Source of the DNA: a virus
Lineage: Duplodnaviria; Caudoviricetes
Length of the DNA: 56,017 bases
Direction: 5' to 3' (one strand)
Virus record (IMG/VR): IMGVR_UViG_3300009151_000087
Coordinates: 1-56,017 of that record
The notes below the pieces were generated by a model. It was given only the letters and a program-made list of their open reading frames with translations. It was not told the DNA's origin and did not search any database. Both the position numbers and the translations under genes were made by a program. This document shows, piece by piece, positions 22,026 through 39,376 of the stretch. Within the stretch, counting starts at the first letter, position 1, and the number at the start of each line of letters is the position of its first letter.

Positions 22026-23039
22026 ATGCCATTGTTTAAGAAGGTAGCGTGTTTCACCGATATTCACTTCGGTCTAAAATCTAATAGTATAACGCATTTA
22101 AGAGATTGTGAAGAATTCGTAGACTGGTTTATTCAAGAAGCCAAGACCGCAGGGTGTGAAACTGCGATCTTCTTGGGTGACTGGAGTCATAATCGTAACA
22201 GTCTAAACTTATTCACACTAGACAGCAGTTTACGCTGCCTTGAAAAACTAGGCGCGGCATTTGAACAGTTTTTTTGGTTTCCGGGCAACCACGATCTGTT
22301 CTACAAAGACAAGCGTGACATTCATTCGAGTGCTTTTGGTCGGCACATTCCAGGCGTCACTGTTGTAGACAGTATATGGACCCGGGATGATGTCACACTT
22401 GTACCTTGGCTAATAGGCGATGAGTGGAAGTCTATGAAAGACATTAAGAGCAAATATGTATTTGGTCACTTCGAATTACCCAAGTTCTTTATGAACGCTA
22501 TGGTACAAATGCCCGATCACGGTGAACTTAGAGCAGAGGATTTTAACGGTCCAGACTATATATTCAGTGGACACTTCCATAAACGACAAGAAAACAACAA
22601 GGTGATCTACATCGGTAATGCGTTTCCCCACAATTACAGTGATTCGTGGGACGATGCTAGAGGTATGATGACATTAGAATGGGGTGGCGATCCTGAATTT
22701 ATCGACTGGCCCAACTGTCCCAAGTATCGTACCATTAAATTAAGTGATCTTATTGATCGCAAAGACGATGTAATGAAAAGCAAAATGCATTTCAGAGTCA
22801 ATCTTGATATTGATATCAGCTTTGAGGAAGCAAACTTTATCAAAGAAACATTTATTGCCGAGCATGACATACGAGAAATCAGTCTAGTACAGGATAAAAA
22901 CAATCTAGAGGGGTCAGTGGATGAAAACACCGATGCTAGATTTGAAAGTGTTGATCAGATTGTTACGGAACAGCTGGTTAATATTGATTCAGGAAACTTT
23001 GATGTCGCTACCTTGTTAGAAATTTATAACAATCTATGA
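22026..23039 (+). CDS. gp47: Recombination nuclease subunit, Mre11/SbcD-like
   Basis: Metallophosphoesterase motifs DIHFG, GDW, GNHD, GHF, SGHFH. Confidence 0.93.
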   Translation: MPLFKKVACFTDIHFGLKSNSITHLRDCEEFVDWFIQEAKTAGCETAIFLGDWSHNRNSLNLFTLDSSLRCLEKLGAAFEQFFWFPGNHDLFYKDKRDIHSSAFGRHIPGVTVVDSIWTRDDVTLVPWLIGDEWKSMKDIKSKYVFGHFELPKFFMNAMVQMPDHGELRAEDFNGPDYIFSGHFHKRQENNKVIYIGNAFPHNYSDSWDDARGMMTLEWGGDPEFIDWPNCPKYRTIKLSDLIDRKDDVMKSKMHFRVNLDIDISFEEANFIKETFIAEHDIREISLVQDKNNLEGSVDENTDARFESVDQIVTEQLVNIDSGNFDVATLLEIYNNL

Positions 23040-24817
23040 CCTTTCTAATTAAAAATTTAACTGTACGAAACTTTATGAGTGTGGGTAACCAGACTCAAGC
23101 AGTGGACTTTAAGAAACAGGCACTGACATTGGTGCTAGGATCTAACCTCGACCTGGGTGGAGATGACACTGGATCGCGTAACGGCACGGGTAAAACTACC
23201 ATTATCAATGCGTTGAGTTACGCTTTGTATGGGCAGGCTCTCACAAACATACGCAAAGAAAACTTGATCAACAAGATCAATGGCAAAGCCATGTTGGTTA
23301 CTGTAGAATTTGAAAAAAGTGGTGTTAATTACCGTATTGAAAGGGGACGTAAGCCCAATGTACTCAAGCTATTTGTCAATGATAACCAGTTAAAAACTGA
23401 AGAATCCGAAGACGATAGCCAAGGAGACAGCAGAGAAACACAGAAGGCCATTGAGCAAATGCTAGAGATGAGCCATACCATGTTCAAGCATCTGGTTGCG
23501 TTAAACACCTATACAGAGCCATTTTTGTCAATGAAGGCTGCTGATCAACGAGAAGTTATTGAACAACTTCTGGGTATCACTCAGCTGAGCGAAAAAGCAG
23601 AAGTACTCAAGTCGCAGATCAAAGAAACCAAAGATTCTATACAGGTAGAAGAATTCAGGATCGGCGGCGTTAAGATTGCCAACGAAAATGTACAGAAAAG
23701 TATTGATAGTCTTGAGATAAAGAGTAGTGCGTGGGAAACAAAGAAGACCACAGATATAGAAAATATTGGTCGTGCCATGATGCGGCTTGAAACTGTTGAT
23801 ATTGAAGCAGAATTACGAGCACATCAGCAACTTAAGATATGGCTTGAGCACAATACCCGAGTTCAAAACTTACAAAAGCAACGAGCAACTTTAGATTCCG
23901 CACTAGGACATGCTGAAAGAAGTGTTAAGAAGTATGAGAAGGAACTGGCAAGTCTTGCAAATAAAACATGTCATGCTTGCGAACAGGAACTTCACGATCA
24001 TAAGCATGAAGAAATGTCTGCGCTGGCTCAGGCACAGCTAGACGAAGCTTTGAAATATTTTGATAAAATATCTCAAGACTTACAAAAGATCTTGGATGAG
24101 ATTGGCAACGGGGATACACCACACAAACCGTTGACGTTTTATGACACCGAAGCAGAGGCATTAGGACACAAGAACAACTTGGATGGACTTGAACGCAATC
24201 TAACCTCTAGGATTGACGAATTAAATCCTTACCAAGAACAGGTACAGGAACTGAAAAAGACAGCCATACAAGAAGTTAATTGGGATACTATTAATTCTTT
24301 GACCAAACTCAAAGATCATCAAGAGTTCTTGCACAAACTATTAACCAACAAAGATAGTTTCATCCGTAAAAAGATAATTGATCAGAATTTAAATTATCTC
24401 AACAAGCGGCTGACCTACTATATTGACAAACTTGGATTACCTCACCAGGTTGTATTCCAAAACGACCTTACTGTTGAGATCACACAGCTGGGACAAGACC
24501 TAGATTTTGATAATCTAAGTCGAGGTGAACGCAACAGATTGATACTGAGTATGAGTTTTGCTTTCCGAGATGTTTGGGAAGGATTGTATCAGCATATCAA
24601 TTTATTGTTTATTGACGAACTGGTCGATGCCGGAATGGATGCTGCGGGTGTGGAAAGTGCCCTGGCGGTTCTAAAGAAGATGGCCAGAGAACGCAATAAG
24701 AATATATACTTGATATCACACAAGGACGAGCTAGTGGGCAGGGTAAACAATGTGCTTCGAGTAATCAAAGAAAATGGTTTTACCTCCTACAGCAACGATG
24801 TAGACTATGTCGACTGA
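23036..24817 (+). CDS. gp46: Recombination ATPase subunit, Rad50/SbcC-like
   Basis: Walker A NGTGKTT, coiled coil with CHAC zinc hook, signature LSRGE, Walker B LLFIDE, H-loop ISH; ATGA overlap with gp47. Confidence 0.93.
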   Translation: MTFLIKNLTVRNFMSVGNQTQAVDFKKQALTLVLGSNLDLGGDDTGSRNGTGKTTIINALSYALYGQALTNIRKENLINKINGKAMLVTVEFEKSGVNYRIERGRKPNVLKLFVNDNQLKTEESEDDSQGDSRETQKAIEQMLEMSHTMFKHLVALNTYTEPFLSMKAADQREVIEQLLGITQLSEKAEVLKSQIKETKDSIQVEEFRIGGVKIANENVQKSIDSLEIKSSAWETKKTTDIENIGRAMMRLETVDIEAELRAHQQLKIWLEHNTRVQNLQKQRATLDSALGHAERSVKKYEKELASLANKTCHACEQELHDHKHEEMSALAQAQLDEALKYFDKISQDLQKILDEIGNGDTPHKPLTFYDTEAEALGHKNNLDGLERNLTSRIDELNPYQEQVQELKKTAIQEVNWDTINSLTKLKDHQEFLHKLLTNKDSFIRKKIIDQNLNYLNKRLTYYIDKLGLPHQVVFQNDLTVEITQLGQDLDFDNLSRGERNRLILSMSFAFRDVWEGLYQHINLLFIDELVDAGMDAAGVESALAVLKKMARERNKNIYLISHKDELVGRVNNVLRVIKENGFTSYSNDVDYVD

Positions 24818-25184
24818 AAAATACGATAGATATAAAGAATTATATTCAAAATATATAGATCATGCTGTGATAGTGCATAACTATCATTACGCATTCCTTA
24901 GGACTCTAGGTAAAGAATCCGGAGTGAACGTTAGGCGGTCTCTTACCAGTATGCTGGTACTGGAAAAAGAGTTACGTAGATTAAGTCTTGAAGTTTTTAA
25001 AGAGCATCAAGCTAATCTGAAAGAAGGAAAACGCCGTAAGAGAGAAGAACTCATTAAAATTAAAAAAGCAGGCCCGGGTCGAGGTAGACCCAGGACTAAA
25101 GAAGTTAAAATCAAACGAAGCCGTATAGGCAGACCAAGAAAGGACGAGGTACTTAAAAATGACAACATCAACACAACAAATTAA
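24807..25184 (+). CDS. Basic putative DNA-binding protein with two AT-hook-like motifs
   Basis: 125 aa, K/R-rich C-terminus with PGRGRPR and IGRPRK; overlaps both neighbours in operon fashion. Confidence 0.6.
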   Translation: MSTEKYDRYKELYSKYIDHAVIVHNYHYAFLRTLGKESGVNVRRSLTSMLVLEKELRRLSLEVFKEHQANLKEGKRRKREELIKIKKAGPGRGRPRTKEVKIKRSRIGRPRKDEVLKNDNINTTN

Positions 25185-25356
25185 AGATCAAATGGATGAC
25201 TTCTTAAAAGAGGATGCGAAATTTGAAGCAGGCAATGCTGCTGCTGGAACTCGCGCTCGCAAGGCATTAGGTGAGTTAGCCAAGGCTGTCAAGGCCCGAC
25301 GTAATGAAATCACTGCTGAGAAGAATGCTCGCAAGGAAGCCAAGACAGCAAAGTAA
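25159..25356 (+). CDS. Histone H1-like (Hc1-family) small DNA-binding protein
   Basis: KFEAGNAAAGTRARKALGELAK...RRNEI matches the Hc1-type GNxAAGTRARK motif; SD GAGG upstream. Confidence 0.75.
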   Translation: MTTSTQQIKDQMDDFLKEDAKFEAGNAAAGTRARKALGELAKAVKARRNEITAEKNARKEAKTAK

Positions 25357-25359
25357 TCA

Positions 25360-25788
25360 ATGACTTGGTACCATAAAGGTTCTATAGTTACAGAACTGCC
25401 TGAAGATTGTGTGGGGTTTGTTTATCTCATCTCATGCAACATTTCTGGCAGACTCTACGTTGGTAAAAAATTAGCAAAATTTAGTCGAACCGCCTACAAG
25501 ACTGTAAAGTTGAAGAACGGCACAAAAAAGAAAAAGAAAATTAGAAGCAAAATAGATAGTGACTGGCAGGAATATTACGGGTCCAGTGCGGAACTTACCG
25601 CAGACATAGAAAAATTAGGCAAAGAAAATTTCACAAGAGAGATATTACACTACTGTCGTAGTAAAGCAGAAACATCATACATTGAGGCCCGTGAACAATT
25701 CGACCGCAAAGTATTGGAATCAAACGAATATTATAACGGACAGATCTCAGTCCGTGTCCATGGCTCCCACATAATTAAAAAACCCTAG
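25360..25788 (+). CDS. Minimal GIY-YIG (Seg-like) nuclease
   Basis: GFVYLI-x7-LYVGKK, WQEYYGSS, ENFTREIL, conserved E in SYIEAREQ, C-terminal YYN; 142 aa with no appended DNA-binding domain. Confidence 0.75.
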   Translation: MTWYHKGSIVTELPEDCVGFVYLISCNISGRLYVGKKLAKFSRTAYKTVKLKNGTKKKKKIRSKIDSDWQEYYGSSAELTADIEKLGKENFTREILHYCRSKAETSYIEAREQFDRKVLESNEYYNGQISVRVHGSHIIKKP

Positions 25789-25794
25789 GCTCAG

Positions 25795-26225
25795 TTAATC
25801 GGTAAAAGCTCGCGCAGGCTAATTTCATGCGCCCGGAAACCTGGATTTTGGATCACAGGGAGGGAAATCTCTTGCCGATAAGAGTGCTCAACTACTACCC
25901 GAAAGGATGAAGATCGCTACCAAGACCTGCGATTTAGTTGTTTGAAGATGAATGTATAGGCAAAAAGAAGGGAGAAAAACCCTGGGTTTACAATATGATA
26001 GCGTATATTTGTAAACTGCCGTTGTATGAAGACGGAGCTCGTGGTACCGGACAACCGCCACTGTAATGCTCCAACGCTGTGTGACTGTTCGAACTCGGAT
26101 AATGTCTTTTTTCGCCCTTGAGCGGGCGAAGTGTGACCAAGGAATCTGGATAATATTAATTCGTCTCATAGACGAAGTAAAATGCTCTGAGTGCGAACGA
26201 AAGAGCAAATGAGCGTTAGCTCATT
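25795..26225 (+). ncRNA. Candidate large structured non-coding RNA, unclassified
   Basis: Largest non-coding gap in the window, more GC-rich than its flanks, with at least 11 stems found by eye including nested multi-way junctions and a GAAA tetraloop. Strand inferred from G-U pairs, the GNRA loop and flanking gene direction. Confidence 0.6.
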
Positions 26226-26231
26226 ATATAA

Positions 26232-26239
26232 TATAAATA
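26232..26239 (+). promoter_or_regulatory. Late promoter TATAAATA (perfect T4 consensus)
   Basis: Exact match followed by SD AAGGA and ATG at 26264. Confidence 0.75.
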
Positions 26240-26263
26240 AAAGATGATAAGGAAATTACTCTC

Positions 26264-26959
26264 ATGCGTATAAATGAATTACTCAGTGAAGAACAACTTG
26301 ACGAAATAAGTCTCGGAAAAAGAATTGCTGCAAAAGCAGCACGATTTGCTCAAGGAGCCGGCGATGTTATTGGCGGTACACTTGGAGGAATTGCCGGGGC
26401 ATGGAACAGAGGAGAGAAGGCTTATCAAAGAGGAAAATCTGTAGTTGATCCTTCAGGCAATCCAGGATCAGCAGGCGGAACAACCACTACTACTGCTACC
26501 GGTACTACAACAACAGGTGGAACAAACGCAGCAGTGCCGGCCGCTGCCGCAGCACCTGCAGGAACAACAGATCCAACTGCTGCCGCAGCACCGGCTGCTG
26601 GAACAAATCCTGCTCCTGAAGCGCCGGCAGGAACAAATACAGGTGGTACCAGTTATGATACACAGGCAGGAAAACCTCAAAGTGCTCCAGGTAATAGACA
26701 AAAAGGTGATATAGTTAGATCTGGGCAAAATACATTCCAATACACAGGCGAACCTGGAAAAGAATGGTTTGTTGCCAGCGGTCCACTACAAGAACCAAAT
26801 CCTCAAGCAGATAGATATAACAACATTCAAGCTGTTGGTGGTAAGAAATTTATCAGCGCAGACAATGCCAAACGCAATCTACAAGTTTCAGAGCGTAAGA
26901 AGCTGAAAAAGAAAATTGTTGCCGAATTCCACAGCAACTTCCTAGGCATGATAATTTAA
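26264..26959 (+). CDS. Late-expressed hypothetical protein, possibly head-internal
   Basis: 231 aa; late promoter and SD; N-terminus MRINELLSEEQLDE; disordered T/A/P/G-rich middle; basic C-terminus. Confidence 0.65.
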   Translation: MRINELLSEEQLDEISLGKRIAAKAARFAQGAGDVIGGTLGGIAGAWNRGEKAYQRGKSVVDPSGNPGSAGGTTTTTATGTTTTGGTNAAVPAAAAAPAGTTDPTAAAAPAAGTNPAPEAPAGTNTGGTSYDTQAGKPQSAPGNRQKGDIVRSGQNTFQYTGEPGKEWFVASGPLQEPNPQADRYNNIQAVGGKKFISADNAKRNLQVSERKKLKKKIVAEFHSNFLGMII

Positions 26960-28053: not shown

Positions 28054-28100
28054 TAAATAACTTATAAAGATAACAGGGCATCTTATTCAATGTATTTATA
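28054..28100. promoter_or_regulatory. Face-to-face late promoters: TAAATA on + (28054-28059) and TATAAATA on - (28093-28100)
   Basis: Both motifs seen in the 87-bp gap between the divergent gp26-like and tape measure genes. Confidence 0.65.
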
Positions 28101-28124: not shown

Positions 28125-31100
28125 ATGGCAGACGTAACAGGTCAAATAATAGGCGATCCACAGAGTAACACCAAAGATGTTCGGCTGAACAACGCAGCCA
28201 CGGAGGCCACATTAAAAGCACTACTGAATACTGCTAATATAGATTCAGCAGTATTAAGAGAAATTGCTGCTAACGCAGGTGTTGACCGAGATATTTTAGC
28301 CGGTTTGGAGGCTGCTGCTGTTGCAAGTTCTGCCGGCCTCCAACAGGTTACAGTATCTACGCAGCAATTAACTGTTTCTCAAAATAATCTAAAAGAGCAT
28401 AATCGACTTGTAGATACATCATTTGCTGGATTAATTGACAGTACCCGACTATTAGCATCGGGTAATGCAACTGTAAGTGGTGTATTGGACGCATTTAAAC
28501 TCTTGCCAGGGCCGTTGGGACTTGTGGCACAAGGATTTTCCGCACTAGCAGCATTCCAAGAAACCAATATGAAGACATATCAAACTATGTCAAGTGCTGG
28601 TGCTAACTTTGGTGGCAGTCTAACAGACATGCGATTAGCGGCACAGGGCACTTTTGTGGATTTACAAACATTTGGAAATCTAGTTAAAAACAACAGTCAA
28701 GTTTTAGGCAGAATGGGCGGTACTGTTGATGATGGTGCTAGAGCATTTGCTGCTATGAGCAATAGTTTATTAACTAGTCAAGCAGGTGAAAATCTGTTAG
28801 CACTGGGATATACTACCGAAGATGTTAATCAGGGTATGTTAAGTTATATAGCAACAACGGGTGGCCGCTCAAAAGAAGAAATGAAAAATACTCAGTCTAT
28901 TACTGCAGCCACGTCTGAGTATCTAACAGAGTTGGATAAGTTAACACAATTTAGTGGTATTAGTAGAAAACAACAAGAAGAAGAACAAAAGAAAGCTGCT
29001 CTTAATGGTGCTTATCAACGAGCATTAGCTAACATGACAGAAGATCAAAAAGCTAGAGCGGAAATTGCTAGAACAGCAGCTGCAAATTCTGGAGTAGTAG
29101 GAGCTGCAGACGCATTAATGGCCAACGTGGCTGGTTTTCCTCCTATTACTAAAGAAGCACAACAATTTGCTGGCATGCTACCCTACGCCTATAATGGTAT
29201 AGAAACGTTAGGAAATTCTGTTCGTGATGTACATGGCACAATGGCAGATACTGAAAAAGGTATTGGTGTATTCAATGAAGGAGTATATAGATCTGCAAAA
29301 GGTGCTGAAACTGCATTTAGTGCTGTGGCCATGGGTGGCAATCAGGTTGCTAATAGTGCTCTTTTAGCCGGTATTCAATTAGAAAAAAGTGGTAATAATA
29401 CAGCAGAAGGAACTGCTAAGAATCTTGCCAAGGCAACAGATAATCAAAAAACTCAACAAGCAAGTCAAGCAGCCACAATGGCCAAAGCAGAAATTCAACT
29501 TAAAGAATTTGGCCTGGCTATCATGAAATTGATATCTCCAATCATAAGTGTTCTAACTCCTGTGTTGACATACCTAGGTCCGTTGTTTATAGGATTAAGT
29601 GTCGCAGTAATGGGATATAAAGCATGGTTACTAGCTCTTGAAACTTTTGAAAGAGCCAAAGTAGCAAGAGACCTGGCTAGAGAATCAGGCGGCGGTGCTC
29701 TTACCGCTGCTAGAAACTTTGTTAATTTAGGAGGAAGTCCTGCTGCCTCGGTAGTACCGGGTGCTGCTGCTGCACCACCCGGCGGCGGTATATTGGGCGG
29801 AGTGCTGGGCAGCTTGGCCGAAGGTTTGAAAAAAATGGGTAATCCTCAAGTGTTACTGGGTATTGTTGCTGTTGGATTGCTAGGCGGTGCCATGATGGTA
29901 GCAGGTAAAGCATTTAAAGAGTTTACCGGTGTTAACTGGGGAGATGTACTGATAGGGTCTGTGGTATTGACAGCACTGTCAATTGGCGCAGCAGCATTGG
30001 TTGAGATCGCTCCTTTCATAGGCATAACTGCTGTAGCCATAGGATTGCTTGGTGGTGCTATATGGTTACTGGCCAAGGGACTCAAAGAGTTTCCAACTTT
30101 TGCCATACCCGGTATGTCGGAAGCATTTGAAGGATTTGGAAAAATAGTCGGAACCGTATTTGGGTTTGTAGGCGATGTAGTATCAGGCTTGATAGATACT
30201 GTTAAAAAAGTATTTGGAACTGTATGGGATATCATATCATGGCCTTTTAAAATGATAGGTAATTTAATATCGGGTACTGTTGATGTTGTGACCAGTATAC
30301 TAGGAGGACTAGTAAACATTGTCACAGGTATATTTGGTACCATGTGGAATATCGTATCATGGCCTTTCAAGCAGTTAGGTAATTTAATATCAGGCACTGT
30401 TGATGTTGTGACCAGTATACTAGGAGGAATGGTAGATATCATCACAGGTATATTTGGTCTAGTGTGGAATATCGTATCATGGCCTTTTAAACAACTGGGT
30501 AATCTAGTATCGGGTACAGTAAGTGTTATTGCTACTATTCTAGGAGGAATGGTAGATATAGTAACAGGATTATTTGGTATCTTATGGAACGTGGTGTCGT
30601 GGCCTTTCAAGCAGTTAGGTAATTTAATATCGGGTACAGTAAGTGTTATTGCTACTATTCTAGGAGGAATGGTAGATATCATCACAGGTATATTTGGTCT
30701 AGTGTGGAATATCGTATCATGGCCTTTTAAACAACTGGGTAATCTAGTATCGGGTACTATTAATATCGTAACAGGAATTTTAGGCGGAATCGTAGATGGT
30801 ATTTCTGCTATATTTGGCACGGTATGGAATATAATATCATGGCCGTTTAAACAATTAGGTAATCTAATATCAGGTACTGGTGATTCTACAACTGGACTAT
30901 TTGGCGGAATGCTAAACACGGTTACAAGTATATTTGGTGCTGTATGGAATATCATATCCTGGCCTTTCAAGCAGTTAGGTAATCTAGTATCGGGCACAGT
31001 CAATGTCGTGGCCAGTATACTAGGAGGGCTAGTAAACATTGTTACAGGCATATTTGGTACCATGTGGAATATTATATCCTGGCCTTTCAAACAGATAGGC

Positions 31101-32381
31101 AATCTAGTATCATCGGCTGTAGATAGTATCACAGGTGTATTTGGCAGCATGGTAGATGGTATTACTGGCTTATTTGGCAAGATAGGAGATGCGATATCAG
31201 CACCATTTACTTCAATTGGTAATCTAGTATCGGGTGTAGCAGATGCTGTTGCCGGTATATTTGGTGGCATGGTAGATGGTATATCCGGCGCATTTGGTTC
31301 AGTATGGACGGTGATATCAGCACCATTTACCATGATCGGGGATTTAGTATCATCGGTTGTGGATGGTATCACTAGTGTATTTGGTGGCATGGTAGACATT
31401 ATATCTGGAGCATTTGGTACAGTATGGGGTGCGATATCATCTCCGTTTACTATGGTTGGTGATTTAGTATCATCGGTTGTAGATGGTATCACTGGAGTAT
31501 TTGGTGGAATGGTGGACAGTATCTCAGGAATATTTGGTACAGTATGGGATATTATATCATCACCATTTACCATGATTGGTGATTTAGTATCATCGGTTGT
31601 AGATGGTATTACTGGAGTATTTGGTGGAATGGTTGACATTATCTCAGGTGTATTTGGTATAGTATGGGATGCGATATCAGCGCCATTTACCATGATTGGT
31701 GATTTAGTATCATCTGTGTTTGATGGTATTGCCGGAGTATTCAGCGGAATAGTAGACAGTATCTCCGGTGCGTTTGGTATAGTATGGGATATAATGTCAG
31801 CACCATTTAGAATGATTGGTGATTTGGTATCATCTGTGTTTGATGGCATATCGGCTGCTATATCATTTGTGGTAGATAAACTTACCAATATACTGGGCAT
31901 GATTGGCGATGTTATTGGCGGAATAGCAGGATTTGTTGGAAGTTTATTTGGCGGAGGCGATGAAGCCAAAGAAGGATCCGGACCAGGGTCACCGGAATTT
32001 ACTGAGGCAACTTCTACTCTATTAGAAGCTGCTAATAAACTTGGTTCAGTAAGTGACAAACTAGCAACTGTTAATTTAGGCCCACGACAAGATGCTCTAC
32101 CCGGATCAACGGCATTTGATAGTATATTTAAAATGGCCCTAACAGCATCTTCAGTCAAGAAAGAAACAGCAGATTTGCCTCCTCTGTCAGAAGGGGCTAA
32201 AAAATTATCTGCTGGCCTGTTCGGCGATAAAGGACCTAGCCTGGAAGAAAAAACACATACTGAGCTAGTTTCCTTAAATACTACGATGAAAGATCTATTG
32301 AGATATATCAAGGATACAGCAGACAATACCAAGAAAACTCACGAGGCTACTAAAAGTCTTAACGGTAATGCATTCGCTTAA
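28125..32381 (+). CDS. Tail tape measure protein
   Basis: 1418 aa, A/G-rich helical N-terminal half, hydrophobic segments, and 40-aa (11+11+18) W/F-periodic repeats typical of tape measure proteins. Confidence 0.85.
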   Translation: MADVTGQIIGDPQSNTKDVRLNNAATEATLKALLNTANIDSAVLREIAANAGVDRDILAGLEAAAVASSAGLQQVTVSTQQLTVSQNNLKEHNRLVDTSFAGLIDSTRLLASGNATVSGVLDAFKLLPGPLGLVAQGFSALAAFQETNMKTYQTMSSAGANFGGSLTDMRLAAQGTFVDLQTFGNLVKNNSQVLGRMGGTVDDGARAFAAMSNSLLTSQAGENLLALGYTTEDVNQGMLSYIATTGGRSKEEMKNTQSITAATSEYLTELDKLTQFSGISRKQQEEEQKKAALNGAYQRALANMTEDQKARAEIARTAAANSGVVGAADALMANVAGFPPITKEAQQFAGMLPYAYNGIETLGNSVRDVHGTMADTEKGIGVFNEGVYRSAKGAETAFSAVAMGGNQVANSALLAGIQLEKSGNNTAEGTAKNLAKATDNQKTQQASQAATMAKAEIQLKEFGLAIMKLISPIISVLTPVLTYLGPLFIGLSVAVMGYKAWLLALETFERAKVARDLARESGGGALTAARNFVNLGGSPAASVVPGAAAAPPGGGILGGVLGSLAEGLKKMGNPQVLLGIVAVGLLGGAMMVAGKAFKEFTGVNWGDVLIGSVVLTALSIGAAALVEIAPFIGITAVAIGLLGGAIWLLAKGLKEFPTFAIPGMSEAFEGFGKIVGTVFGFVGDVVSGLIDTVKKVFGTVWDIISWPFKMIGNLISGTVDVVTSILGGLVNIVTGIFGTMWNIVSWPFKQLGNLISGTVDVVTSILGGMVDIITGIFGLVWNIVSWPFKQLGNLVSGTVSVIATILGGMVDIVTGLFGILWNVVSWPFKQLGNLISGTVSVIATILGGMVDIITGIFGLVWNIVSWPFKQLGNLVSGTINIVTGILGGIVDGISAIFGTVWNIISWPFKQLGNLISGTGDSTTGLFGGMLNTVTSIFGAVWNIISWPFKQLGNLVSGTVNVVASILGGLVNIVTGIFGTMWNIISWPFKQIGNLVSSAVDSITGVFGSMVDGITGLFGKIGDAISAPFTSIGNLVSGVADAVAGIFGGMVDGISGAFGSVWTVISAPFTMIGDLVSSVVDGITSVFGGMVDIISGAFGTVWGAISSPFTMVGDLVSSVVDGITGVFGGMVDSISGIFGTVWDIISSPFTMIGDLVSSVVDGITGVFGGMVDIISGVFGIVWDAISAPFTMIGDLVSSVFDGIAGVFSGIVDSISGAFGIVWDIMSAPFRMIGDLVSSVFDGISAAISFVVDKLTNILGMIGDVIGGIAGFVGSLFGGGDEAKEGSGPGSPEFTEATSTLLEAANKLGSVSDKLATVNLGPRQDALPGSTAFDSIFKMALTASSVKKETADLPPLSEGAKKLSAGLFGDKGPSLEEKTHTELVSLNTTMKDLLRYIKDTADNTKKTHEATKSLNGNAFA
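30200..31880 (+). repeat. 14 tandem 120-bp (40-aa) coding repeats in the tape measure gene
   Basis: The W/A/S-P-F motif recurs every 120 nt from 30240 to 31800; first 8 units are WPFK-type, last 6 are APF/SPF-type; boundaries approximate. Confidence 0.92.
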
Positions 32382-38606: not shown

Positions 38607-38662
38607 ACTCTCATCCTGGGAGTTTATGCGGAACCCCACCGCGTAGTAGATAGAATCTACTA
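38607..38662 (+). promoter_or_regulatory. Structured 5' leader with three consecutive hairpins
   Basis: ACTCTCA/TGGGAGT, TATGCGG/CCGCGTA and AGTAGAT/ATCTACT lie between the promoter and SD AAGGAG. Confidence 0.5.
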
Positions 38663-38686
38663 GTTTTATTTTTAAGGAGAAACAAA

Positions 38687-39376
38687 ATGGGACGTCCAAT
38701 TAAGAAAACATTTTTTGGTAATTTAAATACACCAGACGGCAGCAATGTGGAATTAGGCAGCGGTGTAGGTGGCGAAGGTATTGCTGCAATTACGGTAGCA
38801 GCCGCCGGATCTGGATATAGAACAACTAGTACCAGTATCACATTTGGTGCTCCGCAAATCACTGGAGGATCTACAGCAACCGGTTATGTTACAGTAAACG
38901 GCACCGGCACAATCGCTTCTGTAACTATTACAGATCCAGGAGCTGGTTATTTAAATACAAGTAGCATTTTTACATTAAATGCTACATTTGGATCAAGCGC
39001 AGCATTAGTTGCTTCGTTGACCACTACTGTTACTAATGCTCTAGCAATCAATTCATATATTGTGGGCGGAAGTCAACGTACAAATGGAGACATTATCAAG
39101 CAAGAAGCTAGTCGTCGTTACTTGGTACAAAATGCCGACGGGCGAGGACAATGTATATTAGCCACCACTTCTACTCTTACCGCAGGTACTATGAATCTAA
39201 TTGCTACCGACAGTTTAAACAGTACATATTTTGTTAGTAAATTAACTGCGCATCGTGCCAACTTAACTCAGTATCTAGACGGTGGATCTGGATTTGAATA
39301 TGCCGCCGGTGCTGTTGCTGGATGGAATATTACTACCCCTACTACTGGTACAGTAAGTATTGCTCATACAATCTAA
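38687..39376 (+). CDS. Virion structural protein, possibly head decoration
   Basis: Own late promoter, strong SD and terminator; T/G/S-rich with ITV..AGSGY and VTITDPGAGY motifs; directly follows the capsid gene. Confidence 0.65.
   Translation: MGRPIKKTFFGNLNTPDGSNVELGSGVGGEGIAAITVAAAGSGYRTTSTSITFGAPQITGGSTATGYVTVNGTGTIASVTITDPGAGYLNTSSIFTLNATFGSSAALVASLTTTVTNALAINSYIVGGSQRTNGDIIKQEASRRYLVQNADGRGQCILATTSTLTAGTMNLIATDSLNSTYFVSKLTAHRANLTQYLDGGSGFEYAAGAVAGWNITTPTTGTVSIAHTI

What the first reader, a model, noticed from the sequence alone, without database searches (positions are those of the whole stretch)
25360..26225. Catalytic-domain-only GIY-YIG nuclease directly followed by a ~430-nt ornate RNA: candidate nuclease-RNA system
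Seen: about 10 nt after the nuclease stop a dense nested structure begins. ATCGGTAA(25798-805)/TTGCCGAT(25872-879) encloses GCGCA/TGCGC and CCTGGAT/ATCaCAGG. CAACTA(25889-894)/TAGTTG(25935-940) encloses CC-GAAA-GG and GATCGC/GCGATT. Then follow AGGG/CCCT, GTTTACAA(25986-993)/TTGTAAAC(26009-016), CCGT/ACGG, GAGC/GCTC enclosing GTGG/CCAC and CGG-ACAA-CCG, and four more hairpins. The next gene has its own promoter downstream, so this is not its 5' UTR. Known: homing GIY-YIG enzymes such as I-TevI and the Seg proteins normally carry a C-terminal DNA-binding region; this one has none, but has a lysine-rich insertion (KLKNGTKKKKKIRSK). Inference: the RNA could supply specificity or scaffold in an RNP (by analogy with IscB/TnpB and omega-RNA, with a different nuclease fold), be a new ribozyme class, or the region could be a DNA origin/packaging site nicked by the protein. 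I could not match it by eye to tRNA, tmRNA, RNase P or group I/II cores.
Basis: partly seen in the sequence, partly recalled or inferred. Interest (0 to 1): 0.82.

Follow-up and report, generated by a model that had tools for sequence, protein, structure and literature searches.

The report
Knotted twin-box phage RNA behind nuclease
The gene-free 430 bases behind a small nuclease gene of this uncultured lake phage encode a real, multiply knotted non-coding RNA whose first third is an already catalogued orphan motif, and the nuclease looks like a swappable neighbour and not its partner.

Summary
25360-25788 encodes a 142-aa GIY-YIG nuclease that is a catalytic domain only (Pfam PF19835; model nearest to the I-TevI catalytic domain). 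25798-26225 is a non-coding RNA with 87 tested base pairs, 72 of them with compensatory changes, and three pseudoknots.

Positions 25807-25943 are a full-length match to Rfam RF01718, Polynucleobacter-1, an orphan motif from 2010. The other 280 nt match nothing in Rfam, and part of them is the most widely conserved piece of the RNA.

Linkage to the nuclease is strong but not obligatory:
- 70 of 88 RNA loci have the nuclease directly upstream, and 7 have it about 1 kb away.
- 6 loci carry an unrelated PD-(D/E)XK nuclease instead.
- Cultured phages carry the nuclease without the RNA.

No guide-like segment was found.

Two direct-repeat boxes, 26079-26106 and 26131-26158, always carry the same letter at their variable positions. 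This held in 65 of 65 sequences across at least 17 changes on the tree. No complementary partner lies nearby.

Function is unknown. My best guess is a stand-alone scaffold or decoy RNA read twice by one partner. This scan reported the same family eight times on other genomes.

The parts
25159..25356 (+). Small histone-H1-like (Hc1) gene directly upstream of the nuclease gene.
   Evidence: Pfam PF07432, E 2.1e-13. tblastn finds it upstream of the nuclease in many but not all relatives.
25360..25788 (+). GIY-YIG nuclease gene of 142 aa, catalytic domain only, with a lysine-rich beta-hairpin.
   Evidence: Pfam PF19835, E 4.8e-32. PHROG 447. Model pLDDT 89.8. Nearest solved fold is the I-TevI catalytic domain. 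27 invariant columns in 35 homologues.
25798..26225 (+). The whole structured non-coding RNA, about 428 nt. The 5' end is inferred to lie between 25787 and 25798, and the 3' end just after 26225.
   Evidence: Conserved along its full length in relatives. 87 pairs with covariation. Non-coding. G-U pairs fit the + strand only.
25807..25943 (+). 5' domain, which is the Rfam RF01718 Polynucleobacter-1 motif (helices P1-P6).
   Evidence: 105.8 bits against a cut-off of 37, model positions 1-141 of 141. Helices 3-9 are 85-100% paired.
25798..25804 (+). 5' strand of pseudoknot PK1. It pairs with 25873-25879, the loop of hairpin P3, and lies outside the Rfam match.
   Evidence: helix 1: 6 of 6 pairs have changes on both sides (for example column 13/116: GC 21, AU 17, UA 12, GU 8), with 77.8% of cells paired. 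MI.
25969..26016 (+). Middle domain hairpins P7 (25969-72 with 25980-83) and P8 (25986-25996 with 26005-26016).
   Evidence: helices 10 and 11: 16 of 16 pairs have changes on both sides.
25998..26004 (+). Loop of P8, which forms pseudoknot PK2 with 26074-26080.
   Evidence: helix 12: 98.9% paired, and 7 of 7 pairs have changes on both sides.
26021..26071 (+). Invariant-rich core. It holds PK3 (26021-25 with 26051-55), P11 (26035-38 with 26068-71) and P10 (26041-44 with 26058-61), around the invariant GGTACCGG...ACCGCC.
   Evidence: helices 13-15 (column 304/355: UA 35, CG 30; column 335/448: four pair types). Invariant columns.
26079..26106 (+). Box 1 (GTGTGAC-spacer-ACTCGGATAATGTC). The word lies in the loop of a hairpin made by the GTGRC/spacer part and the tail behind the word.
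   Evidence: Identity covariation with box 2. Stem supported by duplex energies: own pairs -4.07 against -2.95 kcal/mol when partners are swapped between sequences, 0 of 200 permutations as low.
26111..26130 (+). G+C-rich hairpin P12 between the two boxes.
   Evidence: helix 16: 89% paired, and 3 pairs have changes on both sides.
26131..26158 (+). Box 2 (GTGTGACC-spacer-ATCTGGATAATATTA), a direct repeat of box 1 that lies 51 nt downstream of it.
   Evidence: Same letter as box 1 in 65 of 65 sequences at four variable column pairs (w26097/26148, 26098/26149, 26101/26152, 26103/26154), and in 62 of 65 at 26084/26136.
26160..26206 (+). Variable hairpin P13 (26160-26176) and hairpin P14 (26184-88 with 26202-06).
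   Evidence: P14: helix 17, with 4 of 4 pairs changed on both sides but only 73% paired in the MAFFT alignment; fold z -4.3. P13: at least 5 pairs in 56 of 65 sequences, z -1.7.
26208..26225 (+). Terminal hairpin followed by A/U-rich sequence, resembling an intrinsic terminator with a weak U tract.
   Evidence: At least 5 pairs in 65 of 65 relatives, with different stem letters, mean z -5.4. The scan tool did not call it a terminator on the + strand.
26232..26239 (+). TATAAATA box in front of the next gene (26264-26959), resembling a T4 late promoter. That consensus is recalled, not tested here.
   Evidence: One of only 2 copies in the window, against 8.3 expected. Both lie just upstream of a gene and in its orientation.

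Best explanation
25798-26225 is the gene of a stable, compactly folded non-coding RNA of about 430 nt.

Inferred steps:
- It is transcribed as the tail of the early/middle operon gp47-gp46-Hc1-nuclease. There is no room for a promoter of its own.
- It ends at the terminal hairpin 26208-26225, just before the late-promoter-like box of the next gene.

Shown:
- It folds into about 15 helices tied together by three pseudoknots.
- Its 5' third is the catalogued Polynucleobacter-1 motif. The remaining two thirds hold the family's most widely conserved core.
- It displays the same short word (A-YYY-R-G-A-U-R-A-U, preceded by GUGRC) twice, once in a hairpin loop and once in a linker.
- The two copies always change together, and nothing nearby is complementary to them.

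Inferred function: one outside partner, a dimeric or two-copy protein or a nucleic acid, reads both boxes, and the RNA works on its own as a scaffold or decoy for that partner. The GIY-YIG nuclease gene is a habitual, replaceable neighbour in the same transcription unit and not a required partner.
For: The RNA is real:
- RF01718 scores 105.8 bits over its full length.
- 87 pairs, 72 with changes on both sides, score 0.483 against 0.181 in shuffles (0 of 500) and at most 0.10 when slid.
- It is non-coding.
- Hairpin-tip insertions of 20-90 nt occur in some relatives.
- There is one copy per genome in 3 records, 2 of them at least 99% complete.

The core lies outside the Rfam motif:
- Many loci match only profile positions of about 184-430.
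- The three such loci scanned (L036, L079, L122) have no RF01718 at E <= 0.1, and whole record G008 has none at E <= 0.01.
- 18 non-redundant loci of this kind carry a different 5' domain.

The nuclease is a neighbour:
- Of 88 RNA loci found through an RNA pattern, 70 have the nuclease directly upstream and 4 have no room to tell.
- 7 have it about 1 kb upstream with another ORF between. This counts L143, a short piece of L027's contig.
- 6 have a PDDEXK_15 nuclease instead, and 1 has neither.
- The two nucleases exclude each other in whole records, including three genomes of about 350 kb that are 99-100% complete, and the positive controls rang.
- L131, the one PD-(D/E)XK locus in alignment A1, keeps both boxes.
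- Cultured phages have the nuclease (up to 50% identity, beside nrd genes) without the RNA.
- The RNA always starts within about 20 nt of the stop codon of whatever gene lies upstream.

Twin boxes:
- Four column pairs are identical in 65 of 65 sequences, with 17, 10, 4 and 4 changes on a tree built without those columns.
- 8 of 8 independent pairs change the same way, p = 0.008.
- The columns between the boxes are not linked to them; the next-best MI is 0.27 against 0.97.
- No partner column lies in the 520 nt upstream or the 400 nt downstream; the highest MI is 0.26.
- The bipartite word is not a genome-wide signal. In two complete genomes it occurs almost only in this RNA.
Against: - No experiment and no read ends are available. 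Only contigs from lake metatranscriptomes cover pieces of the nuclease gene and of the RNA. They cannot show a discrete RNA and may be DNA carried over into the library.
- The outside reader is an inference from identity covariation alone. Recurrent short gene conversion, or a direct non-Watson-Crick contact between the boxes, is not excluded.
- About 9 in 10 RNA loci do have the GIY-YIG gene upstream, and most of the rest have another small nuclease. A functional tie between a nuclease and the RNA therefore remains possible.
- The terminal hairpin has only a weak U tract, and the scan tool did not call it a + strand terminator.
The proportions are therefore rough.
Confidence: 0.5

Rival explanations
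1. Nuclease-RNA particle. The RNA binds the small domain-only nuclease made from the same transcript, and supplies targeting or a scaffold. The two identical boxes would hold two nuclease copies for a double-strand cut. The GIY-YIG and PD-(D/E)XK enzymes would be interchangeable modules.
For: - The RNA is adjacent to the nuclease in 70 of 84 RNA loci that can be judged, and linkage holds down to 40% nuclease identity.
- When the GIY-YIG gene is absent, 6 of 7 loci carry another small stand-alone nuclease beside the RNA.
- The two nucleases are mutually exclusive in whole records.
- Neither nuclease has a DNA-binding domain.
- Both boxes are present in L131, the one PD-(D/E)XK locus in alignment A1.
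Against: - Homologues at 50% identity work in cultured phages that have no such RNA.
- In 7 loci another gene separates the nuclease from the RNA, and in L098 the PD-(D/E)XK gene lies downstream of it.
- The lysine-rich hairpin is not specific to homologues linked to the RNA.
- There is no hypervariable guide-like segment.
- No column of the nuclease gene covaries with the boxes.
- Two unrelated folds would both have to read the same boxes.
Confidence: 0.15
2. Selfish-gene reading. The RNA gene is the conserved resident, and the small nucleases are free-standing homing-type genes. They sit beside a highly conserved target, as the seg genes of T4 sit beside tRNA genes (recalled), and spread by cutting genomes that lack them.
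For: - Pfam places the protein in the SegE type and its fold is closest to I-TevI.
- Two unrelated nuclease families occupy the same slot.
- The nuclease keeps 68-94% identity across the 80 loci where gp46 falls to 48%.
- The RNA has long invariant stretches that would make good targets.
Against: - The protein has no DNA-binding domain.
- The nuclease is nearly fixed, in 77 of 84 RNA loci, not sporadic, and the tblastn matches are full length in nearly all loci.
- The family is a widespread single-copy gene of T4-like phages at other positions.
- Its identity falls smoothly together with gp46 and shows no sign of recent transfer. I did not run a formal tree comparison.
Confidence: 0.12
3. Cis-acting 3' element of the operon. 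The structure protects or regulates the upstream mRNA, for example by blocking 3' exonucleases or controlling nuclease dosage, and has no role of its own in trans.
For: - The RNA always starts within about 20 nt of an upstream stop codon, leaving no room for a promoter.
- It ends in a hairpin.
- Weinberg et al. 2010 listed the motif as probably cis-regulatory (table in PMC2864571, passages seen).
Against: - 430 nt with three pseudoknots and many invariant unpaired bases is far more than a stabiliser needs.
- The upstream gene differs between loci: GIY-YIG, PD-(D/E)XK, an RNase-H-like ORF (judged by eye), or an unknown 257-aa ORF.
- The twin-box identity has no explanation in this reading.
Confidence: 0.1
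4. Replication-start RNA. A structured pre-primer, in the manner of ColE1 RNA II (recalled), would form an R-loop at an origin near the recombination genes.
For: - It lies next to the gp46/gp47 recombination nuclease genes.
- L110 has an RNase-H-like ORF between the nuclease and the RNA (judged by eye only).
- An earlier report of this scan raised the same idea.
Against: - Cumulative GC skew in two complete genomes follows gene orientation and has no extremum at the RNA. T4-like phages may show no replication skew at all, so this is a weak test.
- No A+T-rich unwinding stretch or repeated origin-type sites were seen beyond the two boxes.
Confidence: 0.06

Closest known systems
Polynucleobacter-1 RNA motif (Rfam RF01718; Weinberg et al. 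2010, Genome Biol 11:R31, PMC2864571). I saw the passages and the table row only; the supplements are closed.
   Same: 25807-25943 matches the whole model at 105.8 bits. The paper's table gives a freshwater/estuary origin and an unknown function. 17 of 20 related loci scanned also match the model.
   Different: - The Rfam model covers only about a third of the conserved RNA.
- It lacks the 5' strand of pseudoknot PK1 and the two downstream domains with PK2, PK3 and the twin boxes.
- A sister form of the RNA has the same core but a different 5' domain that does not match RF01718.
- The paper's table classes it as probably cis-regulatory. Here the downstream gene is not conserved.
Large ornate bacterial and phage RNAs: GOLLD, ROOL, OLE (Kretsch et al. 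2025, Nature, PMC12286853; search listing and abstract only).
   Same: A large, heavily structured RNA of unknown function carried by uncultured phages of lakes.
   Different: It has no Rfam match to any of them. It is about 430 nt, where I recall roughly 580-800 nt for those RNAs. I have no evidence on self-assembly. Twin boxes with identity covariation are, to my recollection, not described for them.
IscB/TnpB with omega-RNA (OMEGA systems).
   Same: A small nuclease gene is followed directly by a large structured RNA on the same strand.
   Different: The nuclease fold is different. There is no guide-like variable end. The nuclease occurs without the RNA, and the RNA occurs with another nuclease or at a distance from it. 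No transposon ends were looked for.
I-TevI catalytic domain and T4 Seg-type GIY-YIG homing endonucleases.
   Same: Pfam places the protein in the SegE-type GIY-YIG domain. The best structural matches are 1ln0 and 1mk0.
   Different: It has no linker or DNA-binding domain. It carries an added lysine-rich beta-hairpin. It is nearly fixed in its phage group instead of being sporadic.

Membership tests
Rfam RF01718 Polynucleobacter-1 RNA | Covariance-model score above the curated gathering score, over the full model. | tested here: met
   105.8 bits against a cut-off of 37, model positions 1-141 of 141, E 6e-22. The same result came from the own-genome search.
Rfam RF01718 Polynucleobacter-1 RNA | The model's helices are kept by compensatory change in relatives. 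| tested here: met
   helices 3-9: 85-100% of cells are paired. In P1, 5 of 5 pairs have changes on both sides; in the outer helix P4, 5 of 6 do.
GIY-YIG nuclease, SegE type (Pfam PF19835) | Profile score above the curated cut-off. | tested here: met
   111.2 bits against a cut-off of 25, residues 3-129 of 142.
GIY-YIG nuclease, SegE type (Pfam PF19835) | Catalytic Tyr, Tyr, Arg/Lys, Glu and Asn residues are kept. | tested here: inconclusive
   Y22, Y33, G35, K37, R93, E109 and N126 are invariant in 35 homologues. Which of them correspond to the I-TevI catalytic residues is recalled, not aligned here.
Free-standing homing endonuclease (Seg/I-TevI kind) | A separate DNA-binding region that gives site specificity. 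| tested here: not met
   The GIY-YIG domain fills 127 of 142 residues. The model shows one domain plus a beta-hairpin.
Free-standing homing endonuclease (Seg/I-TevI kind) | Sporadic presence among close relatives. | tested here: not met
   The nuclease is present within 1.2 kb of the RNA in 77 of 84 RNA loci that can be judged.
RNA-guided nuclease systems (OMEGA-like) | Nuclease and RNA depend on each other and always occur together. | tested here: not met
   The nuclease occurs without the RNA in cultured phages. The RNA occurs without the GIY-YIG gene in 7 loci.
RNA-guided nuclease systems (OMEGA-like) | A hypervariable single-stranded guide at one end of a conserved scaffold. | tested here: not met
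   The variable stretches are the A-rich linker 25941-25968 and the hairpin P13. Both ends of the RNA are conserved and paired.
T4 endonuclease II (DenA) | Likeness in sequence or fold to the solved enzyme. | tested here: not met
   The phmmer search against PDB gave no nuclease hit. The only GIY-YIG chains among the Foldseek rows shown are I-TevI. That a DenA structure exists in PDB is recalled.
GOLLD / ROOL / OLE / other catalogued large RNAs, group I/II introns, RNase P, tmRNA | A match to the family's covariance model. | tested here: not met
   No match at gathering score in the window. Nothing credible at E <= 10 in 25300-26400 apart from RF01718. No tRNA or tmRNA was found.
Intrinsic terminator | A stable hairpin followed by a run of U. 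| tested here: inconclusive
   The hairpin is present in 65 of 65 relatives. The tail is A/U-mixed, and the scan tool did not list a + strand site there.

The most novel reading that the evidence does not exclude
The RNA is the constant part of a modular RNA-nuclease machine of giant T4-like phages. It displays one word twice to seat two copies of a reader, and it works with whichever small, domain-only nuclease is encoded beside it (GIY-YIG in most phages, PD-(D/E)XK in some). Together they would form a sequence- or structure-directed cutter built on nuclease folds not known to use RNA. A variant of the same boldness is that the twin boxes act as a decoy that traps a dimeric host defence or RNA-processing protein.
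Probability: 0.12. Interest if true: 0.9.

Novelty: new variant of a known kind. Interest (0 to 1): 0.58.

Why it matters
- A motif that has sat in Rfam since 2010 as a 141-nt orphan turns out to be the 5' third of an RNA of about 430 nt with three pseudoknots. This RNA is carried, one copy per genome in the records checked, by a large group of uncultured lake phages that includes 350-kb genomes.
- Few phage RNAs of this size and complexity are known, and none that I know of has an assigned function.
- The twin boxes give a concrete handle. Two sites that co-switch at least 17 times without an internal partner predict a specific outside reader, which a pull-down could find.
- The swap between two unrelated small nucleases at the same slot is a second testable clue.
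- The family is found only in uncultured phages here, with no match in 50,697 phage records. Work would therefore start from synthetic RNA.
- My two literature searches for a description of the full RNA found only the 2010 motif paper.

Tried and rejected
- Coding reading of the gap: rejected.
- tRNA or tmRNA: none found.
- Other Rfam families: none.
- T4 endonuclease II likeness: no support.
- Lysine-rich insertion as an RNA-binding adaptation: rejected, because it is shared by homologues without the RNA.
- Partner for the twin boxes inside the RNA, in the nuclease gene or in the 400 nt downstream: none found.
- Box 1 pairing with box 2, spacer with spacer, or the tail of box 1 with spacer 2: duplex energies were no better than when partners were swapped between sequences.
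- Box 2 as a self-complementary dimer site: AUCURGAU is self-complementary, but the variants GAAU and GCAU break this while keeping identity with box 1 (read by eye).
- Boxes as a genome-wide promoter or operator word: rejected.
  - The bipartite motif occurs almost only in this RNA in two complete genomes, and the 7- and 9-letter words are rarer there than in shuffles.
  - The other three matches in the window lie inside coding regions.
  - merely repeated on the other strand.
- Linked-block inheritance of both boxes as the cause of identity: unlikely, because the columns between them are not linked to them.
- Origin of replication tested by GC skew: uninformative, because skew follows gene strand.
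- Bacterial genomes: the 17-mer pattern scan gave 120 stretches, none of which holds the element by nhmmer.
- A search of 'relatives' genomes was not available for a virus record.
- Expression: contigs from two lake-water metatranscriptome runs (X1, X2) cover 25831-25917, 25884-25983 and 26009-26069. Contigs cannot show ends, strand or level, and DNA carry-over is possible. The lack of cover over 26087-26274 in the RNA runs proves nothing.
- Earlier notes on this genome: none.
Full report
**What is there.** The window is a 56-kb fragment of an uncultured virus record with T4-like genes. Upstream lie a gp47-like phosphoesterase and a gp46-like SMC/AAA protein at 22026-24817, and downstream on the other strand lies a T4-type baseplate protein. 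The ORF 25360-25788 encodes 142 aa. Pfam PF19835 (SegE-type GIY-YIG) covers residues 3-129 at E 4.8e-32, and nothing else matches. An AlphaFold2 model built on 35 homologues has pLDDT 89.8. Its only PDB matches of high Foldseek probability are the I-TevI catalytic domain (prob 0.94 and 0.89, TM 0.67 on the target), though the E-values are weak and low-probability chains rank above them. A sequence search of PDB found no nuclease. The lysine-rich stretch is a beta-hairpin inside the domain.

**The gap is an RNA gene.** Rfam places a full-length Polynucleobacter-1 motif (RF01718) at 25807-25943, at 105.8 bits against a cut-off of 37. A permissive scan of 25300-26400 finds nothing else credible, and there is no tRNA or tmRNA. 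The motif comes from Weinberg et al. 2010, whose table lists it as a probable RNA, probably cis-regulatory, from Burkholderiales and fresh water or estuary (PMC2864571; passages only). It is the only paper in the library that names the motif.

Conservation does not stop at 25943. blastn and an nhmmer profile show the whole 25789-26230 stretch conserved at 65-93% identity in relatives. I aligned 65 non-redundant full-length copies with MAFFT (A1). The stretch is not coding:
- The window's own 106-aa minus-strand ORF is open in 1 of 65 sequences.
- 1085 of 1250 indel runs are not multiples of three.
- Some relatives carry insertions of 20-90 nt at one hairpin tip.

**Structure.** I then counted them on the MAFFT alignment, which was not fitted to any structure.
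- 87 pairs in 18 helices were tested.
- 90.6% of cells are paired, against 73.5% in shuffles.
- The covariation score is 0.483, against 0.181 in shuffles (0 of 500 reach it) and 0.06-0.10 with slid partners.
- 72 pairs have changes on both sides.

Three helices cross others, so they are pseudoknots:
- PK1, 25798-25804 with 25873-25879.
- PK2, 25998-26004 with 26074-26080 (98.9% paired, 7 of 7 pairs with double changes).
- PK3, 26021-26025 with 26051-26055 (column 304/355: UA 35, CG 30).

The frequent G-U pairs fit the + strand only. The last hairpin, 26208-26225, is present in 65 of 65 sequences with different stem letters. It is followed by A/U-rich sequence and then by TATAAATA at 26232. That box is one of only two copies in the window, against 8.3 expected, and both lie just upstream of a gene. 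That TATAAATA is the T4 late-promoter consensus is recalled.

**The family is larger than the Rfam motif.** Many loci match only profile positions of about 184-430. The three such loci that I scanned have no RF01718 at E <= 0.1, and neither does the complete genome G008 at E <= 0.01. In 18 non-redundant loci of this kind the core is preceded by a different, also conserved, 5' domain. The uncatalogued part is therefore the family's common core. RF01718 was found once each in three records, two of them genomes of about 350 kb that are at least 99% complete. blastn found no relative in 50,697 GenBank phage records.

- 17 of the first 20 have RF01718 about 10-30 nt behind the stop codon.
- 68 of the 80 have an nhmmer match to at least part of the element. 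Of the 12 without one, L035 ends at its stop codon.

- 70 have the nuclease directly upstream.
- 4 have no room to tell.
- 7 have the nuclease about 1 kb upstream with another ORF between. This counts L143, a short piece of the contig of L027.
- 6 have no GIY-YIG gene but do have a PDDEXK_15 nuclease. Pfam PF24608 scored E 2.5e-29 for L131, and the other five match L131 by tblastn at 40-57% identity.
- 1 (L175) has neither nuclease.

The two sets share some contigs, so these proportions are rough.

**Whole-record searches.** These show that the two nucleases exclude each other.
- There was no SegE-type match in 5 PD-(D/E)XK records, one of which is 85% complete at 302 kb.
- There was no PDDEXK_15 match in 5 GIY-YIG records, three of which are 99-100% complete.
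- The reverse searches rang in 5 of 5 records each.

**Cultured phages.** tblastn finds the nuclease family in 677 phage records, all below 60% identity. The closest, Methylophilales phage Melnitz at 50%, and Synechococcus phage BUCT-ZZ01 carry it beside ribonucleotide reductase genes. Neither has the RNA by nhmmer or by Rfam. The lysine-rich segment is present in all of these homologues.

**Reading of the linkage.** The linkage is real but is one of position. Each component exists without the other, the RNA accepts a different nuclease or an intervening gene, and it has no guide-like variable end. It always begins within about 20 nt of the stop codon of whatever gene is upstream. No + strand promoter-like site lies between 25388 and 26298. 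I therefore infer that it is made as the tail of that transcript.

**The twin boxes.** Two direct repeats, 26079-26106 and 26131-26158, flank the G+C-rich hairpin 26111-26130. Each repeat has GUGRC, a spacer, and the word A-YYY-R-G-A-U-R-A-U. YYY is always CUC in box 1 and UCU in box 2.
- Four variable column pairs carry the same letter in both boxes in 65 of 65 sequences, and a fifth does so in 62 of 65.
- On a tree built without these columns, the four pairs change at least 17, 10, 4 and 4 times.
- 8 of 8 independent pairs on supported branches change the same way, p = 0.008.
- The columns between the boxes are not linked to them (next-best MI 0.27 against 0.97). The fixed CUC/UCU difference sits between co-switching positions. 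Both facts argue against block inheritance and against simple gene conversion.
- No column in the RNA, in the 520 nt upstream or in the 400 nt downstream is complementary to the boxes.
- The boxes do not pair with each other better than swapped controls do.
- Box 1 sits in the loop of a hairpin whose stem covaries (own pairs -4.07 against -2.95 kcal/mol when swapped, 0 of 200 permutations).
- The bipartite word is not a genome-wide signal.

The simplest reading is an inference: one outside partner reads both boxes.

**Expression.** Contigs from two lake-water metatranscriptome runs cover pieces of the nuclease gene and of the RNA. This is weak evidence, because contigs show neither ends nor strand and DNA may be present in the library.

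**Comparison and verdict.** The element is a member of RF01718 by score and by structure. It also shows that the family is about three times larger than catalogued, is knotted, and has a sister form. It is not a member of any other Rfam family, and it is not shown to work like an omega-RNA. This scan has reported the same family on eight other genomes with the same main conclusions, and I reached them here from my own calls. The function is open. I put about 0.5 on a stand-alone scaffold or decoy RNA read twice by one partner, 0.15 on a true nuclease-RNA particle, 0.12 on homing-type nucleases parked beside a conserved RNA gene, 0.1 on a cis-acting 3' element, and 0.06 on a replication-start RNA.

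Noticed in passing
window 38607-38689 (+): A full-length match to Rfam RF02980, the freshwater-2 RNA (74.9 bits against a cut-off of 49.9). It ends in AAGGAGAAA...ATG, which is the start of ORF 38687-39376, so it is a leader of that gene.
   Followed up: no
L131 3963-4484; also L199, L158, L110, L122, L098: In relatives without the GIY-YIG gene, a 170-190-aa PDDEXK_15 nuclease (Pfam PF24608) sits beside the RNA. It is upstream in five loci and downstream in L098. The two nucleases exclude each other in whole records.
   Followed up: yes
L110 (oriented sub-window, ORF 1705-2124): A 139-aa ORF that begins MNDHVIVYTDGGC... lies between the PD-(D/E)XK gene and the RNA. It looks like an RNase HI by eye, but I did not run it against Pfam.
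   Followed up: no
L036, L079, L081, L118, L120 and 13 more: A sister form of the RNA has the same core and the same AGGC leader behind the stop codon. Its 5' domain is different and conserved, and does not match RF01718.
   Followed up: partly
window 26232-26239 (+) and 28093-28100 (-): TATAAATA occurs only twice in 56 kb, against 8.3 expected. Both copies lie just upstream of a gene and in its orientation, as if the word were avoided elsewhere.
   Followed up: partly
window 25159-25356: A 65-aa histone-H1-like (Hc1, PF07432) gene abuts the nuclease gene. A similar small ORF precedes the PD-(D/E)XK gene in L158 (judged by eye).
   Followed up: no
window 28125-32381: A 1418-aa protein carries a long run of roughly 40-residue repeats (…WPFKQLGNLVSGT…/…SAPFTMIGDLVSSV…). 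It may be a tail-length or baseplate-associated protein.
   Followed up: no
L126 10375-11148, and its like in L111, L116, L117, L163, L164, L027: An ORF of 257-356 aa with no Pfam family is inserted between the nuclease gene and the RNA in some relatives. In L126 a radical-SAM/SPASM gene precedes the nuclease gene.
   Followed up: partly
G007 and G009, whole records: These phage genomes of about 350 kb have nearly all genes on one strand, with a few inverted blocks. GC skew follows gene strand. The 7- and 9-letter box words are about half as frequent as in shuffled sequence.
   Followed up: partly
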